A stretch of 64,000 nucleotides of DNA from Eledone cirrhosa (Eukaryota): the NCBI GenBank assembly GCA_964016885.1, contig OZ024754.1, positions 42,532,001 through 42,596,000 on the forward strand, in the 5' to 3' direction. This document shows, in pieces, positions 20,979-59,016 of this stretch. Position 1 is the first letter of the stretch. Every line of letters begins with the position of its first letter. Position numbers and translations under genes: made by a program. A model generated the notes under the pieces. It had not been told where the DNA came from and did no database searches. It worked only from the letters and a program-made list of their open reading frames with translations.

Positions 20979-21054
20979 GTATACGCATGTCTTCATTGTG
21001 TACTATATATAGCTATGTACATACATACATACATAATATATATATATATATATT

Positions 21055-22683
21055 GTTCCAGGGAAAGGCACCACTGATGCGCTCTTCCTTGTGAGGCAAT
21101 TACAGGAAAAGTACCTAGCTAAAAGTAAGCCACTCTACTTGGCATTTGTCGACCTTGAGAAAGCCTTTGACAGAGTTCCACGTGCAGTAATCTGGTGGGC
21201 TCTTAGAAAACTAGGAGTAGATGAATGGCTTGTGAAAGCGGTACAAGCCATGTATAGGGGAGCAGTCAGCAAAGTTAGGATTGGCAATGAGTATAGCGAG
21301 GAATTTAGCGTACAGGTTGGGGTCCACCAGGGCTCTGTTCTTAGCCCTCTCCTGTTCATCATAGTCCTGCAGGCAATAACGGAGGAGTTTAAGACCGGAT
21401 GCCCATGGGAACTCCTGTATGCTGATGACCTCGCACTCATAGCTGAATCTATGGTAGAACTAGAGAATAAATTCCAAACCTGGAAGCAGGGACTAGAGAG
21501 AAAGGGCCTCAAAGTCAACATGACAAAGACTAAGGTCCTTATAAGTAGACGAGAAAACAGAACCCAGATCCCCTCAGGGAAATGGCCTTGCTCAGTATGT
21601 AGGAAAGGTGTAGGTAGGAACTCCATTCTTTGCCCCAAATGCAAACAATGGGTACACAAGAGATGTAGCGGGATCTCAGGAAGCTTAATTAAGAATGTAG
21701 GATTCACATGCAGCAGCTGTGCTGAAACAGCAAGCAAACAGCCACAGGAAACAAGTACCACCAATCTCTGGGAGGGCCCTGTAGAAACAGTAGACAGCTT
21801 CTGCTACCTAGGTGACCGAATTAGCAACGGAGGTGGGTGCTCAGAAAGTACAATAACTAGGGTAAGAACGGGATGGAAGAAGTTTAGGGAACTACTACCA
21901 CTGCTAGCTGCAAAAGGCTTCTCCCTCAGAATGAAAGGCAGACTGTATGATGCGTGTATCCGAACAGCGATGTTGCATGGTAGTGAGACCTGGGCGCTGA
22001 AGGTGGAAGACTTACGTAGATTAGAGAGAAACGAAGCCTGCATGCTCCGATGGATGTGTAACAGTAATATACGTGAACGACAAAGCATAAATGAATTGAG
22101 AGAGAGACTGAGCATAAGAGGAATCAAATGCTGCGTGCAGGAGAGGCGGTTACGCTGGTATGGACATGTGATGCGTATGAAGGATGACAGCTGCATAAAA
22201 AGGTGCAGAGCACTAGAAGTTGATGGAAACCGCGGAGTGGGGAGACCCAAGATGACTTGGGATGAGGTGATAAAAGCCGACCTTACCCAACTACACCTCT
22301 CAAAGTCAATGACACACGACCGTGACTTCTGGCGTCATGCAGTAATACAGGGTACCCGACCTCCCATGGGTACATGCTGAAGCATATAAACAATATGCCC
22401 CCCCCCCCCACCGCAAGGTGGTCGTGGAGGTGCCACGGCAAAAAAGCACCCAGCCCACACTGTAAAGTGGACGTGTAGGCGCCACGAAAAAGCACCCAGC
22501 ACTCACTGTAAATGAGGTTGGTGTTAGGAAGGGCATCCAGCTGTAGAAATCAAGCCAGATCAGTTCCTGTATGAGCAAGGCATGGTCAGCCGACCAGACA
22601 CTGCCCACAACAGGACAACCCGTCTAACCCATGCTAGCGTGGAAGAACGGACGTAAAACGGTGATGATGATGATGATGATGAT
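21055..22683 (+). mobile_element. 5'-truncated RTE-clade LINE with uninterrupted RT ORF (21055..22380), 3' UTR repeats and (GAT)n tail
   Basis: Motifs FVDLEKAFDRV, GVHQGSVLSPLLF, LLYADD, FCYLG, YGHVMRM, GRPKMTW. 3' stem CCATGCTAGCGTGG, then GGACGTAAAACG and (GAT)n. Confidence 0.95.
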
Positions 22684-29644: not shown

Positions 29645-30124
29645 CATACATATAAATATATCCTTGTGAAAGCATCGCAAGAATTCTTGTGCGGGGGAGT
29701 GAGAGATGATACGCGAAAACCTAGACTGGTCCAGTCAGCCTTAGCTAACACGCAGAATTAATCAATCCAAAATAGTATGATTCTATAAATCTTTTTCACG
29801 TGATTATATCTCTTATGACTGGCGAAATATTGGGAAGGAAGATGGCATTAATTCTCTGGTATGAAGGAATAAGATGATTCATACACGCACTAGCTCACTG
29901 TTTAATATATCACATGGCTAGCCGTGCCAATAGAACTACCAAACCATGACTTTTGCATTGAAATACTCACAGTTCGTAAAATTATACACTTTAATGACAG
30001 TAATAACTCAAAATTAATCGAAGAGTTTCTTTTTCTCTTCATTCATAACATATTTACGTCTAGAATTAAAGGTTTGTATTAAAATAGACAAAATTTACGT
30101 CTGCTTAAATTGTTGAATTTCTAC

Positions 30125-30350
30125 CTCTCTACGCATGCGTACCTAGTAAACAACTTCCGTTTACAGAATTTTGGAATATTGAATTAGGTAGACTTATTTA
30201 TTGGGGTTTATTTTGTCTTTCATTTTTATATTTATTTATTTTTATCAGCAGAATCATTGCTTACCGTTTTATGAATAAGAATCTCATGTTTTTTTGTTGT
30301 TTTTTAATATGGTTTAGTTAATATAGTTTGTTGTTAGCGCCATTTTCAAA
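30125..30350 (+). promoter_or_regulatory. Probable housekeeping promoter and non-coding exon 1 of the ARL14EP-like gene
   Basis: NRF1-like palindrome TACGCATGCGTA (~30130), ETS-like ACTTCCG (~30153), donor AG|GTAGAC at 30188, YY1-like CGCCATTTT (~30338). Confidence 0.5.
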
Positions 30351-30905
30351 GCCTCATAAAGCAGCATGTATTCTGAGCAATCAAAACAAAATGATTGCAA
30401 CTCATATCTTTGCCGAATGTACCACACTGATAAATTTACGTCTATTCACTGGTCTAGACAATTGTTTCGGATTCATTCGTTCATTTATTTAATGGAAACC
30501 AGTTGATACAAGGATCTCATCTCTTTTCCTCCCTTGTCTTTGTCATAAAAATGTATAATAATAATAAAGACTGTGAACGAATATAGATGAAGCTGAGTAA
30601 ATCTCCATCAGAATAAAATTATATTGCTTGCAATCTGTGAGTCATCGTGTATAACGCCATAACAAGAGGAACAACCATCGGTTTACAGAGAGCAGTTCAG
30701 AAACATTAAAACACTCATCAGCGACAACTAAATTAGATCAAGCTGAAAATTAAATTTCTAATCAAGTTATATTAATAAAACAAAGGAAAAAATAACATCG
30801 GAACTTTTTTTTTTTCGTTATTCGATTTTTCTGTCATTCCTTTGTTTACAATGGATTCGCTTCTAACGTGGTCAGTTGTAATTAGGTTTCAGTCTTCCGA
30901 TCTTC

Positions 30906-31397
30906 ATGTTAGACCAAGAAAAGTCCACCAAGAAGATAATGACCTGTGAAATAACTAGAAAACACTCAGCTTATGAAATGTTTGAAGTCGAAGAACTGCC
31001 AAGCACGATGGAAGATATGATCAACAATACATCTCTAGGTTTGACTAATAACATTGGTCCTTTGTCTCCGAAATCTGACCACTCGAATAGCAATGATACC
31101 GACAAACAGGGACAAGTAGAAGAAAATACTTTAAGTGTGTCCTCAGACAGTTCGATTTCGTGTATTAAAAAGATTGTTCCGAAAAAATCTGGTCGCCAGT
31201 TAACAAAAGTACAAGAAATGGACAGAGAGTTAACAGGATGGATAAGGGGTATCCATGCTGATGGTAAACTTAACGAACTGACTCGTGAAATGATCATCGA
31301 AAAGGGTCGACTTATTGCCAAAGTGAAGAAAATCTTGGATTTTGCTGGTACTACAAATTGGTACACGAGGTTTTTAAGACGGAATTTCTCCGAAACT
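30906..31397 (+). CDS. ARL14EP: ARL14EP-like gene, first coding exon (164 aa), ending in a CENP-B/pogo-type HTH (EMDRELTGWIR...LTREMIIEKG...DFAGTTNWYTRFLRRN)
   Basis: Non-repetitive open frame from ATG 30906, phase-0 donor GTAAGT at 31398, joins in frame to 33071. Confidence 0.75.
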
Positions 31398-31539
31398 GTA
31401 AGTATTATTATTTCTAGATTGTATTCCATACTTTTCTGAGGAATTACTTGTATATATTTTAAAGTTATTTATCTTGTGCCTCTTCCATATCTCTGTGACT
31501 TTTAGATTTCCTAGGTATGACATTATGGCAAAGATCCCC

Positions 31540-31757
31540 GTTATTGTTAGAGTGTCGGACATTATGCTTTGCGGCATAGAGTTACGACCCTTTACGTTCT
31601 GAGTTCAAATCCCGCCGAGGTTGGCTTTGCTTTTCATCCTTACAGGGTCGATAAAATAAAGTACCAGTGATGCACTGGGTCAATTTAATCGATTTGTCTC
31701 CCCCCCCCCCCCCAAAAAAAAAAAAATTGTTGGCCTTGTGCCTAAATCAGAAAACAT
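31540..31757 (+). mobile_element. tRNA-derived SINE (representative copy). Others at ~4360-4625, 14515-14705, 20420-20512, 23340-23485, 25642-25830, 28590-28710, 39473-39805, 59465-59730, 61390-61750, 63335-63500
   Basis: B-box GTTCAAATCCC, conserved core GCCTTTCATCCTTACGGGGTCGATAAAATAAAGTACCAGT, 3' GGCCTTGTGCC..AGAAAC and (ATT)n; repeated more than ten times in both orientations. Confidence 0.85.
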
Positions 31758-32130
31758 TTTATATACTTTTATTTAGATTTAAACCTAAAGTGGAAACAAA
31801 AATCTAGAAAAAACCCCAGAGATATCACTTAGCTAGAATTATATTTTAACCAGATAGTTTTAACAATGATCGATATATAAACAGGTATACAGCAGTTGAA
31901 GAAGCTCAACTGAAATCACGTGATCATATTGAATTAATTATTTTTCTAATCAATAGTAGTTATTGCAAACATGCTTAATGTAATTAACATAATTGATCAA
32001 ATTAAGCACTGAAAAACAAGATATTAACTCAATGTCTAATAATATTTTTATCATTTTGGCAAATATGGGAAACAACACCCGACAGGCTTCAGTCTTATTT
32101 GACCTCTTAAGCGTGAGAGAACTAGTACAG

Positions 32131-32460
32131 TAATATTACACCAGTTTCACTTTGGAGGTGAATATTACACCAGTTTCACTTTGGAAGTGAATATTACACC
32201 GATTTCACTTTGGAGGTGAATATTACACCGGTTTCATTTTGGAAGTGAATATTACACCAGTTTCACTTTGGAATATTACACCAGTTTCACTTTGGAGGTG
32301 AATATTACACTGGTTTCACTTTGGAAGTGAATATTACACCAGTTTCACTTTGGAATATTACACCAGTTTCACTTTGGAGGTGAATATTACACTGGTTTCA
32401 CTTTGGAAGTGAATATTACACCAGTTTCACTGTGAAAGTGAATATTACACTGGTTTTGCT
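32131..32460. repeat. 29-bp minisatellite in an ARL14EP intron
   Basis: GAATATTACACCAGTTTCACTTTGGA(A/G)GT repeated about 11 times. Confidence 0.93.
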
Positions 32461-32749
32461 TTCGATGTTAAATTCATATATCTTATTGTTTTTTATGTTT
32501 TGAATGAATATTGTCTTCAAAACAGTTGGTAATTGGTAAAAATTCATTACATAATGGAGTTGTGAAACAAAAACTATCCTCTAAATGACACTTAAAACAT
32601 TTTAAATATCAAAATATTAAAACTTCATAAATATATTCTCTACTCATGAGAATTTCAAAACCTCGCCATCTAAACATTAATGTGTTATTGATCAGCTGCC
32701 TGGACTTATACTCAAGGTTTGGAGTTTTACCTATTTCTCACGTGGTTAT

Positions 32750-32990
32750 AATGTTTCAGGAAAGAATTGCTGGACAGATTTTATGGGTAAAACCAACCGG
32801 CAAAAAACCCAGGGATAGACCCAGAGCAAGATGGTTGGATAACATCCATGAGCTTGGCTGGTCTCGCTTGGGGATCCAGCCGGATCAGTTAGTGATGGCT
32901 GCTTCTGACAGGACCCGCTGGAAGGAGTGTTTGAGGACTCTGTCCCCAACGACCCTCTCAGGATTAAGTGGGCAAAGAAGAAGTAAAACA
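32750..32990 (+). mobile_element. LINE (RTE-like, second family) C-terminal fragment; second copy at ~55775..56010
   Basis: ERIAGQIL..KPTGKKPRDRPRARWLDNI...AASDRTRW; homologous DNA at 55775..56010. Confidence 0.7.
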
Positions 32991-33070
32991 AAAGAATTAT
33001 GTAAAATATTTATACTCTAATGTTTAGTTTCTATTAGAAATATAATAATTGTCTCTATTCTTTTAAATAG

Positions 33071-33192
33071 GATGTCGGCAAACATTTGAAAATGCTTTCT
33101 CCCATTAATTCTGTCAAATTTATGGAAGATTTTGATCCAGAAAAAAGTAGCAGGGAAATGCGGAAAATGAACCGCCGGATCTATCGAGAGAA
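33071..33192 (+). CDS. ARL14EP: ARL14EP-like coding exon 2 (DVGKHLKMLSPINSVKFMEDFDPEKSSREMRKMNRRIYRE)
   Basis: Acceptor aaatAG, donor GTATGT (phase 2). FDPE..REMRKMNR.IY resembles the motif before the Cys-rich domain in invertebrate ARL14EP. Confidence 0.85.
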
Positions 33193-33739
33193 GTATGTTT
33201 TATGTTTCTTCGTTACTTAACGTGTTTTATTTCTCAGTATTATGACCTAAGATCAAATTAGGTTTTGTTCCTTAACCCTTTTCATACAAACTTCATCATC
33301 ATCATCATTTTTCCACACTTGCAAAGGTTGCATGGGTCTTTCTCAGCATAGCATCTCTCCACTTGTTGCGTTCCTTTGTTATCTCTTCATACCAGCTCTC
33401 ACCACCTCAGCCTGGCTTTTCCTTGGTTGTCTTTTATTATGGCTTCCTTCCACTGGGATTTCCTGCCACTTCTTCACCCAGTGATCATCGTCCATGCGTA
33501 TAACATGTCCATACCAACGCAGTCTTTTCTCCTCCACACCCCCTTAGATTTCTCTTAAACCCAGCTTCTCCCAGCTCTGACTTTCTCTATAAACCCTAGC
33601 TTAATAATAATAAAGTTCTAGTTCTAAATTCTTCTAAATTCTTGATTATAGCCTTTCACTAGGAATACGGTAAGAAAAGTGTTAAATATTATTTAGCCAC
33701 TTCAACATTAATTCAAAAAGTAGGCTGTTCCATTGATTG

Positions 33740-34210
33740 AACAGTGGCGGAGGGTGTGCAGAGAGTATAATAGCTTGAATAAGGATAGGATGGAAGAAGT
33801 TTAGGGAACTGCTCTCATTGCTAATAACAAGGTTTCTCCCTACGTACAAAAGGACGACTGTATGATGCGTATGTGTGGTGTGCAATGCTGCATAGTAGTG
33901 AAGCATGGTCTGTGACTGGAGAGAAATGAAGCAACCATGTTTTGTTGGATGTGCAATATAAATGTGATAGAAAGGCAGAGCTTGGACGAGCTGAGAGAGA
34001 AGCTGGACTTAAAGGGAATCGGAGATGGTGTACAGGAGAGAAGACTGCGTTGTTGTAGACATGTGATGCATATGTATGTGTATATATCATCATCATCATC
34101 ATCGTTTAACGTCCATCTTCCACGCTGGCATGAGTTAGACGGTTTTGTTCCATTTGATGTGAGAATGGTTGAGCGACTGTGTGTCGCTCGTGCGGAAGTG
34201 TCTCTGACAA
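33740..34210. mobile_element. Decayed RTE ORF fragment (+) abutting an inverted RTE tail (-), in an ARL14EP intron
   Basis: GWKKFRELL, WMCNINV, VQERRLR remnants; CATCATCAT-CGTTTAACGTCC tail on the opposite strand. Confidence 0.75.
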
Positions 34211-34212
34211 TA

Positions 34213-34277
<65 letters not shown>

Positions 34278-34406
34278 TATATGTAAGTATATATTTTAAT
34301 TATATTTTCAATTACCAAAGTATATTTTTGTAAAATACCTTTTCAAGAGAGATATTGATATTTCATTTGAAATATTGTTATATTTTATTTTATTTATTAT
34401 ATTAAG

Positions 34407-34635
34407 CATGAAAACCAACCAAATGTATGATGAAACTGGTCGACTTCTGGACAACAGCAAAGACGTTTGTGATTGCTTGGATGAGGACTGCCCTGGATGT
34501 CACTTTCCTTGTAGCAAATGTGGTTCTGAGAAATGTGGCACTGAGTGTCGCTGTAATCGGAAGTGGATATATGAAGTTGTGGAAATTGAAGGATCAAATC
34601 TAGTGATTAGAAATATTTCTGTAGCTCTCTACTGA
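34407..34635 (+). CDS. ARL14EP: ARL14EP-like last coding exon, Cys-rich ARF7EP_C domain
   Basis: YDETGRLL...[44 protein letters not shown] matches the ARL14EP C-terminal motif [42 protein letters not shown]. Phase-2 acceptor attAAG; TGA ends at 34635. Confidence 0.93.
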
Positions 34636-36239
34636 CTTCAGGGAAAATTGTCCATTCAACTTTTCATCCCTGCATACATAATACTTATCACCATGCCTTT
34701 CATATCCTATACTTGTTCTACCTCTGCTCTACATATCAACAATTAACCCGTTCATTACCGCATTTCTAATGAAATACTCTCTATTTGAATTAAGTAATGA
34801 AACATTTTGAAGGATTTCCTAAAATTATTAATTATTTAAGGGCATTAACTCTAACATAGCTTTGTATATGAAATATGTGAAGTTGTATATCTTGTGATAT
34901 ACGGTATGTTTATAAATAATCATTTTGAAAGCCGTGAGCTATGAATTTGAAAACTAATAGCATAGCGCCATCTAGTGTGTTCCGACAGAAGATAATATCT
35001 TAATGTAAGGGTTCTTATATGAAATTATGTTGGCAGATTTTAATTAAGATTGGAAACCTTTAAAATGGGTGTTTTTATTTCATAGAACCGGAGCTGGTTT
35101 TGGCTGGGTTGGTAACTAAAGGGTTAATCTATCATATATATAAAAGTTGTCATTATATTTTCCATATCATCGCAAACAGATGGCCGTCAACCAACTAACT
35201 TTTATGATCGTCCTGCCTAAACTTCATTTCATTTCACATCACAATACAGACTAATGTTGTACTTGTTTGTGTGATTGTTGTTATTGTCATGGTTACTATT
35301 AGTTAGCTAGTAAAAGTGTGTGATCAAAGATTAGTGTGTTGGGCTCATAATTGTAAGGTCCTGGATTTGGTTCTTGAACTGGGAAGCATATTGTATCTTT
35401 GAGAAAAATTCTTCATTTCACATTGTTGTAGTCCACTCAGTTGAAAAAAAATAAGTACCAGAATCAGCTGGGAGTTAACTCTGTGATGGACTTTTGTCTC
35501 ATCCAGGGGTTAGTCTTGTACTCACAGTCACTTGAAACTGGGATAAACTCCCATTAGATATTCACTAGTATAATATTAATGTGATGATGGTATTGTGAAT
35601 GTTAACATACTATCATTTGGCCTCAAAATAGTTAACTGAATTGGAGATGTTAAGAAAGGTATTTCTTGAGCCTAGAAGTTCATAAGGTTAGAGTTGATCC
35701 CTGTTTCATTGGTGTTAAGCACCCAGTCTGAGAATTGAACCTACAACCATAATCCCCACACTCTAATCTCATATTACAAAAGGTTTCTGATAGGTTAAAA
35801 TCAGCAATATGTGGTCAACTGGTCATCTGGTCCCTCCAGCTTCACGGCAACAGGTCACTACACTCTTCTATCCTTTTCTGTCTCTGGCAAGGGGTTGGTG
35901 CTTGAAACTAGTTTGTGTCACACCTGTGCAGGTCATTTTTTAGGGTGCATCTCAGAGGTCTTCTTTGTTCTACCTTTTGATCTTTTCCCACCAGCTGCCA
36001 ACTGGTAATATTACACTACTAAAGCAAATGCTTTGTTAATCACCAGTATTCAGCTCAAATTTCATCATCATCATCATCATTTAACATCTATTTCTGTAGT
36101 GTAAAGGATATGAGAAATAGAACTCTCCCCACCTGGTAAACTTCTGGGCTGTGTTAGTTCTATTTGTGGAAGTAATATGTCACATCTAATGAAATACTAA
36201 TTTTATTGTACTGTTGCTGTTTATCTCACCCCAGAACTA

Positions 36240-58240: not shown

Positions 58241-58265
58241 TGTATGTTTTAAATTTATTACTTAC

Positions 58266-58343
58266 CCTGTAGTGCCATCTACCCAGCATATAGTGAAGAA
58301 AAGCATCCTTTGGATTGAGTTTTAAACCTTGTTCAATATGGTA
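58266..58343 (-). CDS. RMDN family exon (YHIEQGLKLNPKDAFLHYMLGRWHYR)
   Basis: TPR-like LNP.D...LGRW.Y motif of RMDN; phase 0-0; ttttcAG/GTAAG. Confidence 0.9.
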
Positions 58344-59016
58344 CTGAAAAGATACAATGGGAAGAATATCGTAAGTGGAAATATGAAGGGAAATTGTCCA
58401 ATGGCAAGATTAGGCAAACCTTTCAGAGTTAATAAAGTTTTAGTTGGACTGAGGTCCAGGATAGCCAGAAACTTCCAGAATTATCAAAGGATGGCCTAGA
58501 CAGTCAGGACATTATAGAGATAAATATGATACCCAGGGTAGCTAGGCTATTGCATAAATAATACAGATACCCAGGGTAGCTAGAATATCACATAGATAAT
58601 ACAGATGCCTAGGGAAGCTAGAATATCACACAGATAATATAGATACCCAGGGAAACTAGAATATCACACAGATAATACAGATATCTGGGGGGAACTACAA
58701 TATCACACAGTTAATACAGATACCCAGGATAGCCAATAGTATTCTGAAATAAATCTATGATAACTCAATGGTTAGACAATTATATTTTATTTTACTTTAA
58801 CCCTTTAGTATTTAAATCGGCCGTATCATATCCAGCCAGAATTCTCTCACCTCCTTCTGTTCAAACCTGTCATAACTGGCTACTCATACTTTGTTAAAAT
58901 ATTGTTCTCAAAATAAATAATACCAAAATCTCGTAGATTTGATATTATGTGAGGTAAAGCCTTTTCTGTGAAAATACAATGGTAAATATAGAGTAATGTA
59001 AATGCTAAAGTGTTAA

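What the first reader, a model, noticed from the sequence alone, without database searches (positions are those of the whole stretch)
30906..34635. ARL14EP-like gene carries an in-frame CENP-B/pogo-type DNA-binding HTH: candidate transposase-domain capture onto a SETDB1 cofactor
Seen: exons 30906-31397, 33071-33192 and 34407-34635 splice in frame to 280 aa. The last ~60 aa of the first exon (EMDRELTGWIRGIHADGKLNELTREMIIEKGRLIAKVKKILDFAGTTNWYTRFLRRN) follow the HTH_Tnp_Tc5/CENP-B pattern (E..L..W.......I...MI..KA......DF.AS.GW..RF..R). A phase-0 intron follows immediately, and there is no DDE domain. Known: the ARL14EP/C11orf46 Cys-rich domain associates with SETDB1 (ARLE-14 with MET-2 in C. 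elegans), and I know of no HTH in vertebrate ARL14EP. Host-transposase fusions such as SETMAR arise by splicing of this kind. Inference: a lineage-specific adaptor that could bring H3K9 methylation to pogo/Tigger-derived sequences, a possible functional analogue of KRAB-ZFPs. Skipping this exon (donor 30188 -> acceptor 33071) leaves an in-frame ATG at 33092 for a short HTH-less isoform.
Basis: partly seen in the sequence, partly recalled or inferred. Interest (0 to 1): 0.85.

Follow-up and report, generated by a model that had tools for sequence, protein, structure and literature searches.

The report
Octopus silencing cofactor captured transposon DNA-binder
In octopuses, a gene whose human and worm counterparts help the gene-silencing enzyme SETDB1 has a conserved extra exon encoding a piece shaped like a jumping gene's DNA-binding domain, which likely steers silencing to chosen DNA sites; the same gene carries other jumping-gene-type domains in fish, frogs, snakes, oysters and scorpions.

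Summary
Confirmed. The three exons are GT-AG, in frame, 280 aa: a CENP-B/pogo-type HTH spliced to ARF7EP_C. The HTH scores just under Pfam's cut-off. Three other tests support it: ESM features 0.95, best fold match CENP-B–DNA 1HLV, and a profile built only from this genome's pogo elements. A second paralogue on C20 has the same HTH and introns. Orthologues occur in three Octopus species and Argonauta; 0 of 24 non-cephalopod mollusc proteins have the HTH. It is under purifying selection (pN 0.18, pS 0.90). The nearest sampled donor family is Passer/POGK-type rather than Tigger, weakly. The junction is shown in relatives but only hinted at here; the HTH-less isoform has no support. Wider result: ARL14EP carries transposon-type DNA-binding domains in separate lineages: THAP (teleosts, bivalves, scorpion), a second pogo HTH (dragonet fish), Tc1 HTH (frog), STPR (snakes), BED. 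The vertebrate N-terminal Cys/His domain also matches a transposon family in this genome. DNA binding and SETDB1 recruitment are inferred, not shown. UniProt already auto-labels the HTH; I found no paper on the fusion.

The parts
30906..31397 (+). Coding exon 1: low-complexity N-terminus (start at 30906, or at 30939/30978) plus basic linker and HTH; ends in a phase-0 GT donor
   Evidence: start comparison
31176..31214 (+). Basic linker before the HTH, ending in RQLT; RQLT and V, E, M, D, E are invariant in 7 of 7 aligned cephalopod rows
31215..31385 (+). CENP-B/pogo-type three-helix HTH (PF03221 positions 3-60 of 66); the first HTH (CENP-B_N or BrkDBD) and the DDE domain are absent
31398..33070 (+). 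Intron 1 (phase 0), at the same position in the C20 paralogue; holds high-copy repeats and a minisatellite but no pogo DDE remnant
33071..33192 (+). Coding exon 2: N-terminal part of ARF7EP_C; 122 nt in both paralogues; in-frame ATG at 33092
34407..34635 (+). Coding exon 3: cysteine-rich domain of ARF7EP_C and stop codon
34468..34554 (+). Nine-cysteine cluster with the same spacing as 8HFP chain A; keeps the inferred equivalents of human G218 and R236
   Evidence: residue mapping inferred from the matching 29-residue span
30130..30189 (+). Possible promoter and non-coding first exon: CGCATGCG at 30132, ACTTCCG at 30153 (NRF1-like and ETS-like, names recalled), GT at 30188; possible acceptor AG at 30891-30892. 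Unverified.
   Evidence: no run support

Best explanation
This is an octopus ARL14EP gene whose first coding exon carries a conserved CENP-B/pogo-type helix-turn-helix, likely captured from a pogo DNA transposon, spliced in frame to the cysteine-rich domain that binds SETDB1 in humans, so the protein likely works as a DNA-binding adaptor that tethers SETDB1 and would place H3K9 methylation at sites it recognises. Shown: the exon structure, the domain identity, a second paralogue with the same HTH and introns, restriction to cephalopods among sampled molluscs, purifying selection, and a SETDB1-type gene in the genome. Inferred: (1) a pogo insertion upstream of the phase-0 acceptor of the ARF7EP_C core was exonised before the C14/C20 duplication and before Argonauta split from Octopus, and lost its first HTH and its DDE domain; (2) the CRD binds the SETDB1 MBD as in 8HFP; (3) linker plus HTH bind a short motif, probably old TIR-like, with partners or dimers adding specificity; (4) tethering represses nearby loci, as dCas9-tethered human C11orf46 does. 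The slow HTH evolution fits a fixed set of targets better than an arms race with active elements.
For: Architecture. HTH identity from four directions: Pfam (25.7 bits, above cut-off, for relative P0001); ESM Atlas 0.95 with 191 of 256 features shared and 23 of 30 hits PF03221; AlphaFold three-helix model (pLDDT 74.8) whose top match is CENP-B-DNA 1HLV in Foldseek (probability 1.00, TM 0.73) and VIA-align (Z 9.0, next 6.2, of 48,161 chains); own-genome pogo profile. Splicing: NCBI models in O. vulgaris, O. sinensis, O. bimaculoides and Argonauta hians join the same parts. The unnamed Logan cluster of P0001 holds 4 joined and 3 read-through forms of 7, diverging at the same point, with P0001 on 117 contigs. 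In run X4 one contig matches 31131-31397 exactly and its last 40 letters do not follow the intron. Selection: C14 vs C20 over 68 HTH codons pN 0.177, pS 0.898, bootstrap pN/pS 0.13-0.28; HTH 66/68 identical to O. vulgaris against 44/71 in the same exon's N-terminus, and 59/68 against 30/63 for Argonauta. Lineage: 0 of 24 named non-cephalopod mollusc proteins hit PF03221. Effector side: nine Cys and the G218/R236 equivalents are kept; the CRD and R236 are needed for SETDB1 binding, and dCas9-tethered C11orf46 raises H3K9me3 and lowers Sema6a (PMC6739341 passages); ARLE-14 helps hold MET-2 on chromatin (PMC8850192 passages). A SETDB1-type gene lies on C3 with an MBD exon matching 8HFP chain C (E 7.8e-7) and a Pre-SET exon.
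Against: No binding data of any kind. The window's HTH is 0.1 bit under Pfam's cut-off even when trimmed, the Foldseek E-value is only 0.51, and a sequence search of the PDB found no CENP-B hit. It has one HTH only, and carries a 2-residue insertion relative to the nearest elements, so specificity may be low or lost. No donor was found: the HTH profile returned no transposase among 3,592 candidates, only 5 cephalopod proteins and one bacterial repeat protein. The Passer-type placement rests on one family in a sample of 30 of at least 150 loci; another BrkDBD-like ORF (L020) scores only 2.6 bits, and the tree gives 92/96 support on a 3.05-long branch. The 31397-33071 joint itself was not displayed for this species, and X4 is not on record as RNA. 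Most ARL14EP homologues have no recognised DNA-binding domain (16 of 125 scanned have one), so the module works without one.
Confidence: 0.55

Rival explanations
1. The HTH is real and selected but no longer reads DNA sequence. It acts as a non-specific chromatin or nucleosome anchor, or a protein-binding surface, in place of the histone-binding role of the human N-terminus.
For: Single, divergent HTH below the Pfam cut-off, with only 16 K+R against 9 D+E over 74 aa. Human C11orf46 binds H3 independently of the CRD. Many unrelated N-terminal modules sit at this position in other animals, which a generic anchor would allow.
Against: The basic linker and the recognition-helix W-x-x-R-F are invariant across both paralogues. 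The other captured modules are mostly sequence-specific DNA-binding types (THAP, BED, BrkDBD; from established knowledge).
Confidence: 0.25
2. The HTH came by exon shuffling from an already domesticated CENP-B-type host gene, not directly from a transposon, and regulates host promoters unrelated to transposon ends.
For: No DDE remnant near either copy; no transposase hit in the large search; a long branch to all sampled elements. Octopus has other domesticated CENPB genes, many with BTB (PMC10027918 passages).
Against: An own-genome search with the HTH finds only the C14 and C20 copies (2 matches of 18 candidates), so no close host donor is visible. The best local matches are multi-copy, often broken elements.
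Confidence: 0.13
3. It works like CENP-B itself, binding a centromeric or satellite repeat box and bringing SETDB1 to pericentromeric heterochromatin.
For: The closest fold is CENP-B on its box. pogo transposases were repeatedly domesticated into CENP-B-like proteins (PMC4231638, search listing and start of abstract only).
Against: CENP-B uses two HTHs and a dimerisation domain (table in PMC7386202); only one HTH is present here. No centromere data.
Confidence: 0.05
4. Annotation artefact: a decayed transposon fragment lying upstream of ARL14EP and not part of the protein.
For: No joint displayed for this species.
Against: Same exon and intron phase in two paralogues whose synonymous sites are saturated; joined forms in four named species and in Logan contigs; only two copies in the genome.
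Confidence: 0.02

Closest known systems
ARL14EP / C11orf46 (human), ARLE-14 (C. elegans), CG14464 (Drosophila)
   Same: ARF7EP_C with the nine-Cys CRD that binds the SETDB1/2 MBD (8HFP).
   Different: The N-terminus is a CENP-B-type HTH, not the vertebrate Cys/His domain; three paralogues in this genome, two with the HTH.
Host-transposase fusions, e.g. KRAB-transposase fusions, KRABINER, SETMAR (Cosby et al., bioRxiv 10.1101/2020.05.07.082677, passages)
   Same: A transposase DNA-binding domain in its own exon spliced to a host chromatin-repression module; lineage-restricted; selected.
   Different: The host module is the SETDB1-binding CRD, not KRAB or SET; it is in an invertebrate; the survey covered tetrapods and its main text has 0 mentions of ARL14/ARF7EP. 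The donor element is not identified here.
POGK / POGZ (Passer-derived), CENP-B, TIGD/JRK genes (PMC7386202, passages)
   Same: HTH_Tnp_Tc5 domain; POGZ also has a single HTH; POGK couples it to a repression domain (KRAB).
   Different: All keep a DDE_1 domain; this gene has none and no first HTH.
Caenorhabditis F-box A2 genes with a Mariner HTH (PMC12062965, passages)
   Same: Invertebrate N-terminal capture of a lone transposase HTH.
   Different: That is a large multicopy family with F-box and a Tc1/mariner HTH; here a low-copy chromatin cofactor with a pogo HTH.
Synchiropus ARL14EP (BrkDBD + HTH_Tnp_Tc5 + ARF7EP_C; P0153, P0228)
   Same: Same Pfam HTH on the same host module.
   Different: Likely independent: its core groups with the THAP-bearing medaka protein inside vertebrates (100/84); it keeps both DNA-binding domains and the start of the DDE region, and joins at a different place.

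Membership tests
HTH_Tnp_Tc5 / CENP-B-type HTH (PF03221) | Profile score at or above the curated cut-off (22.2 bits) | tested here: inconclusive
   19.0 bits for the whole exon, 22.1 trimmed; relative P0001 25.7; P0008-P0010 18.6-20.5
HTH_Tnp_Tc5 / CENP-B-type HTH (PF03221) | Three-helix fold of the CENP-B second domain | tested here: met
   Helices 11-28, 37-51, 62-71; top hit 1HLV, TM 0.73 and Z 9.0 over 69 residues, rmsd 3.4
HTH_Tnp_Tc5 / CENP-B-type HTH (PF03221) | Conserved E..L..W in helix 1 and W..RF in the recognition helix | tested here: met
   Invariant in 7 of 7 rows; aligned to pogo ORFs
HTH_Tnp_Tc5 / CENP-B-type HTH (PF03221) | Sequence-specific DNA binding | not testable with these tools
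   Needs SELEX, EMSA or CUT&Tag
ARL14EP (ARF7EP_C, PF14949) | Profile hit above cut-off | tested here: met
   93 bits on exon 3 (cut-off 27), plus profile positions 2-36 on exon 2
ARL14EP (ARF7EP_C, PF14949) | Nine-Cys CRD with G218 and R236 equivalents | tested here: met
   numbering inferred from the 209-237 span
ARL14EP (ARF7EP_C, PF14949) | Binds the SETDB1 MBD | not testable with these tools
   Needs co-IP; a SETDB1-type gene with an MBD is present
Host-transposase fusion gene | Transposase-type domain in an exon separate from the host domain, in frame | tested here: met
Host-transposase fusion gene | Transcript joining the two parts | tested here: inconclusive
   Joined forms in relatives; in this species only a contig that leaves the genome at 31397
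Host-transposase fusion gene | Purifying selection on the captured domain | tested here: met
   pN/pS 0.13-0.28 between paralogues; HTH far more conserved than the same exon's N-terminus
Host-transposase fusion gene | Identifiable donor element (family, TIR, DDE remnant) | tested here: inconclusive
   Passer-type ORFs score best (17-25 bits against a maximum of 10.6 in 2,000 shuffles) but identity is about 27% and there is no DDE remnant; TIRs were not searched
Whole-transposase pogo domestications (POGK, POGZ, TIGD, CENP-B) | DDE_1 domain retained | tested here: not met
   not filed as a member
KRAB zinc-finger repressors | KRAB domain and C2H2 array | tested here: not met
   No such Pfam hit; an analogy of mechanism only
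KRAB zinc-finger repressors | Large, fast-evolving family | tested here: not met
   2 HTH copies found in the genome; HTH 66/68 identical across species
Sola2 DNA transposons (for the L044-L051 family matching the vertebrate N-terminal domain) | Superfamily signature motifs and TIR/TSD | not tested
   The name is recalled from motifs; no Pfam hit; the reference papers were not held

The most novel reading that the evidence does not exclude
The ARL14EP cysteine-rich domain is a pan-animal, KRAB-like repression plug. Lineages have repeatedly spliced transposon DNA-binding domains onto it (pogo HTH in cephalopods and again in dragonets; THAP in teleosts, oysters, scallop and scorpion; Tc1 HTH in a frog; STPR in snakes; BED), and the canonical vertebrate N-terminal domain is itself an old transposon capture. 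Each fusion gives SETDB1 lineage-specific DNA targeting without KRAB/KAP1; in octopus, two paralogues of the HTH fusion direct H3K9me3 to pogo-derived motifs.
Probability: 0.35. Interest if true: 0.92.

Novelty: new variant of a known kind. Interest (0 to 1): 0.75.

Why it matters
How SETDB1 finds targets in animals without KRAB-ZFP/KAP1 is an open question (from my own knowledge; the papers read describe ARL14EP/ARLE-14 only as a likely chromatin recruiter). Human C11orf46 already represses genes when tethered to DNA by dCas9. A natural DNA-binding domain on this module is therefore a concrete, testable targeting route, and it is cephalopod-specific among sampled molluscs. The repeated capture of different transposon-type domains on one low-copy gene would extend the host-transposase fusion rule beyond KRAB and beyond tetrapods. 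It also suggests a DNA-binding or transposon origin for the unannotated N-terminal domain of a human neurodevelopmental risk gene.

Tried and rejected
Complex prediction of the window's CRD with the octopus SETDB1 MBD (two exons as separate chains, 4 Zn): no verdict, scores 0.01, 0.38, 0.02; not evidence either way. No RNA holder was listed among 4 runs; X4 has no depth at 29900-30183, which says nothing about the upstream exon. Only 29900-34150 was laid, so the exon 2-3 joint was not examined by reads. Sequence search of the PDB with the HTH: 6 unrelated hits, E 0.39 or worse. The profile search for a donor gave P0247, a bacterial repeat protein sharing a short word; rejected. The first tblastn for DDE remnants was swamped by SINE-like flanks and was redone with 29 of 37 HTH-spanning ORFs. 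Tudor_5 found no SETDB1, and the MBD search gave three other MBD exons; Pre-SET found it. The Cys/His profile does not extend to venerid, Potamilus or Lingula N-termini (E above 0.5 or unlisted), and Saccoglossus links only weakly by pairwise search (E 0.016-0.055), so these are not counted as the same domain. No AATAAA or ATTAAA in 34636-36200. Earlier scan findings: nothing in 3 look-ups. The Sola2 label could not be checked.
Full report
1. The observation. The three exons lie at the stated coordinates with GT-AG ends and phases 0 and 2, and give 280 aa. Pfam finds HTH_Tnp_Tc5 on residues 104-160 of exon 1 (E 1.4e-3, 19.0 bits; trimmed 22.1 bits against a cut-off of 22.2) and ARF7EP_C across exons 2 and 3. 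Because the Pfam score is borderline I tested the HTH four more ways. The ESM Atlas gives 0.95 to PF03221 clusters, with 191 of 256 features shared. An AlphaFold model from a 7-row alignment has three helices (pLDDT 74.8). Its top match is CENP-B(1-129) on DNA, 1HLV, in Foldseek (probability 1.00, TM 0.73, but E 0.51) and in VIA-align (Z 9.0, the only one of 48,161 chains at Z 8 or more). A profile of 27 pogo HTH rows from this genome, with no ARL14EP row, scores exon 1 at 23.0 bits and the next of 692 window segments at 3.4. A plain sequence search of the PDB found nothing relevant. The start codon is uncertain: Octopus models begin at the equivalent of Met25.

2. Splicing. NCBI models from O. 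vulgaris, O. sinensis, O. bimaculoides and Argonauta hians join the same parts at the same place. An unnamed Logan cluster has 7 members: 4 joined and 3 reading into the intron, diverging at the same residue; P0001 is on 117 contigs. For this species, 4 runs were listed and none is on record as RNA; I laid 2 of them. In X4 a 307-nt contig matches 31131-31397 with no mismatch and carries 40 more letters that do not follow the intron, and the bin depth equals zero cover of the first 64 intron bases. X1's contig runs straight through to 31571. The joint's partner was not displayed (349 joints hidden), so this is a hint only. The skipping isoform has an in-frame ATG and no other support.

3. Paralogues and age. 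The genome (3.0 Gb) has three ARF7EP_C loci (3 matches of 8 candidates) and two HTH copies (2 of 18). The C20 copy has the HTH at 66% identity, the same phase-0 intron, a 122-nt exon 2 and a phase-2 intron. The C5 copy is one 271-aa ORF with the CRD only. In a tree of 45 rows all 10 cephalopod-type rows form one clade (97/89); the window groups with O. vulgaris and Argonauta (99/100); the HTH-less rows are on long branches and their place is unsure. All 24 named non-cephalopod mollusc proteins were scanned and 0 hit PF03221. Of 212 distinct homologues hit the HTH profile at E 0.01 or better: five cephalopod-type (three of them are in the profile) and one fish. One search listed only 150 of 551 hits, and no Nautilus or named squid protein appeared. 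The capture therefore predates the C14/C20 duplication and the Argonauta-Octopus split, but is not dated further.

4. Selection. Between C14 and C20, over 68 HTH codons, pN is 0.177 and pS 0.898 (saturated; bootstrap pN/pS 0.13-0.28); exon 2 gives 0.139/0.712 and exon 3 0.079/0.695. Against O. vulgaris the HTH is 66/68 identical while the same exon's N-terminus is 44/71; against Argonauta 59/68 and 30/63. No orthologue DNA was available, so dN/dS rests on the paralogue pair.

5. Origin. The genome has at least 150 PF03221 matches (150 scored of 455 candidates); I held the best 30 loci and kept 29 HTH-spanning ORFs. The seven best scores (17-25 bits; maximum 10.6 in 2,000 shuffles) all belong to one family, and the other 22 score 10.2 or less. 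That family has BrkDBD + HTH_Tnp_Tc5, the Passer/POGK layout in PMC7386202 (passages). Against this, another BrkDBD-like ORF scores 2.6, identity is only about 27%, tree support is 92/96 on a very long branch, and a profile search of the large collection returned no transposase. No DDE remnant lies near either copy. So pogo-type origin is well supported, Passer-type is a lean, and the donor is unidentified.

6. Effector side. The CRD matches 8HFP chain A (E 7.6e-24 for P0001), and the window has the same nine-Cys spacing. PMC6739341 (passages) reports that CRD residues 209-237 and R236 are needed for SETDB1 binding, and that dCas9-tethered C11orf46 raises H3K9me3 and lowers Sema6a. Matching the 29-residue span places R236 in the ECRC motif and G218 in the C-x-G-C motif, both kept here (inference). 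PMC13108219 (passages) says the non-canonical MBD binds C11orf46, citing Mahana 2024, which I did not read. PMC8850192 (passages) reports that ARLE-14 stabilises MET-2 on chromatin. A SETDB1-type gene lies at C3:149.19-149.21 Mb; its MBD exon matches 8HFP chain C (E 7.8e-7) and it has a Pre-SET exon.

7. The wider pattern. I scanned 55 of the 80 proteins and 70 of the 132 new ones, chosen mainly by length. 16 of these 125 carry a transposon-type DNA-binding domain: THAP in 7, HTH_Tnp_Tc5 in 6, and Tc1-type HTH, zf-BED and STPR in one each. Cluster look-ups name them: THAP in three Oryzias species, Takifugu and (partial) cichlids, Crassostrea virginica, Mizuhopecten and Centruroides; BrkDBD + HTH_Tnp_Tc5 in two Synchiropus species; Tc1-type HTH in Eleutherodactylus coqui; STPR in Ahaetulla and Pantherophis. 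Four Penaeus species carry a zf-C4-like domain (E 0.006, under cut-off). The Synchiropus core groups with medaka inside vertebrates, so its pogo HTH is likely a second, independent capture. Some cases are single-species or alternative isoforms (C. virginica has two different THAP starts and a THAP-less form) and may be young or artefactual, and I ran no control gene for the background rate. The unannotated vertebrate N-terminal Cys/His domain (P0150, a mormyrid fish) also occurs in tick and unnamed Logan ARL14EP proteins (E 1e-8 to 1e-9). Its first half hits a dispersed repeat in this genome (E 5.9e-4): 6 copies on 5 contigs, mostly 80-94% alike, where in at least 4 of the 6 it runs directly into transposase-like core motifs. 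I recall these motifs as Sola2-like; this was not verified. Whether that domain is ancestral on ARL14EP or was captured more than once is open.

8. Mechanism. The best reading is a DNA-binding adaptor: HTH on DNA, CRD on the SETDB1 MBD, H3K9 methylation at bound sites. I put the architecture and pogo-type origin at about 0.9 and the whole mechanism at 0.55. The main rival is a non-specific anchor (0.25). The strong conservation and low copy number fit a fixed regulon better than a KRAB-ZFP-style arms race.

9. What is known. UniProt's automatic names for the two O. bimaculoides proteins are already 'HTH CENPB-type domain-containing protein', so the domain is in databases. I found no paper describing the fusion: 'ARL14EP'+'transposase' gave 13 papers (12 listed, none on this by title or abstract start); 'ARL14EP'+'THAP' gave 0; wider searches were seen as listings only. 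Cosby et al. has 0 mentions in the main text (supplement closed, and its Table S3 could list a tetrapod case). PMC10027918 has 0 mentions in the text and in 5 supplementary files. PMC12062965 has 0 in the text, but its supplement, which lists 12,803 proteins, could not be read. Most subscription journals are not searched.

10. Verdict. A real, selected, cephalopod-restricted host-transposase-type fusion with a new host module; a new variant of a known kind. Interest 0.75, mainly because of the repeated captures and the direct test it offers for KRAB-independent SETDB1 targeting.

Noticed in passing
G000:C20:31736792-31743500 (L005, L007): Second HTH-ARL14EP paralogue with the same introns and a much longer exon-1 frame (445 aa open); its exon 2 is closer to other molluscs than the window's.
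   Followed up: yes
G000:C5:79389116-79389931 (-), L003/L009: Third paralogue: a single 271-aa ORF with the CRD only, no HTH and no exon-2 segment; orthologues in three Octopus species. Possibly a retrocopy or an HTH loss.
   Followed up: partly
L044-L051 (e.g. G000:C1704:17249-17524): Degenerate DNA-transposon family (6 copies, 5 contigs) whose N-terminal Cys/His stretch matches the unannotated N-terminal domain of vertebrate ARL14EP, followed by transposase-like core motifs (Sola2-like, recalled).
   Followed up: partly
G000:C3:149.19-149.21 Mb (L056, L057): SETDB1-type gene; the MBD is split over two exons, the first with an H-x-C-x3-C extension.
   Followed up: partly
P0153 / P0228 (Synchiropus): Pogo BrkDBD+HTH fused to ARL14EP in two dragonet species, where medaka and fugu have THAP; the retained start of the DDE region lacks the first Asp seen in octopus elements.
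   Followed up: partly
P0137 cluster (Penaeus, 4 species); P0065, P0067 (unnamed JGI): Other N-terminal modules on ARF7EP_C: a zf-C4-like domain in shrimp (E 0.006) and a stretch resembling an RFX winged helix (recalled; no Pfam hit).
   Followed up: partly
G000:C4:234.67-234.84 Mb: Six HTH_Tnp_Tc5 matches within about 165 kb: a possible tandem cluster of pogo-derived genes or elements.
   Followed up: no
L011, G000:C6:60688665: Uninterrupted 568-aa CENP-B/TIGD-like frame with the best PF03221 score in the genome; possible domesticated gene.
   Followed up: no
window 58257-58409 (-): Exon matching RMD1-3 (regulator of microtubule dynamics), E 4.5e-5, under cut-off: neighbouring gene.
   Followed up: partly
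window 21037-22380 (+): 447-aa frame with reverse-transcriptase-like motifs (LINE, recalled; not scanned).
   Followed up: no
window 32130-32450 and 31540-31745: Roughly 30-bp minisatellite and a very high-copy SINE-like repeat in intron 1.
   Followed up: no
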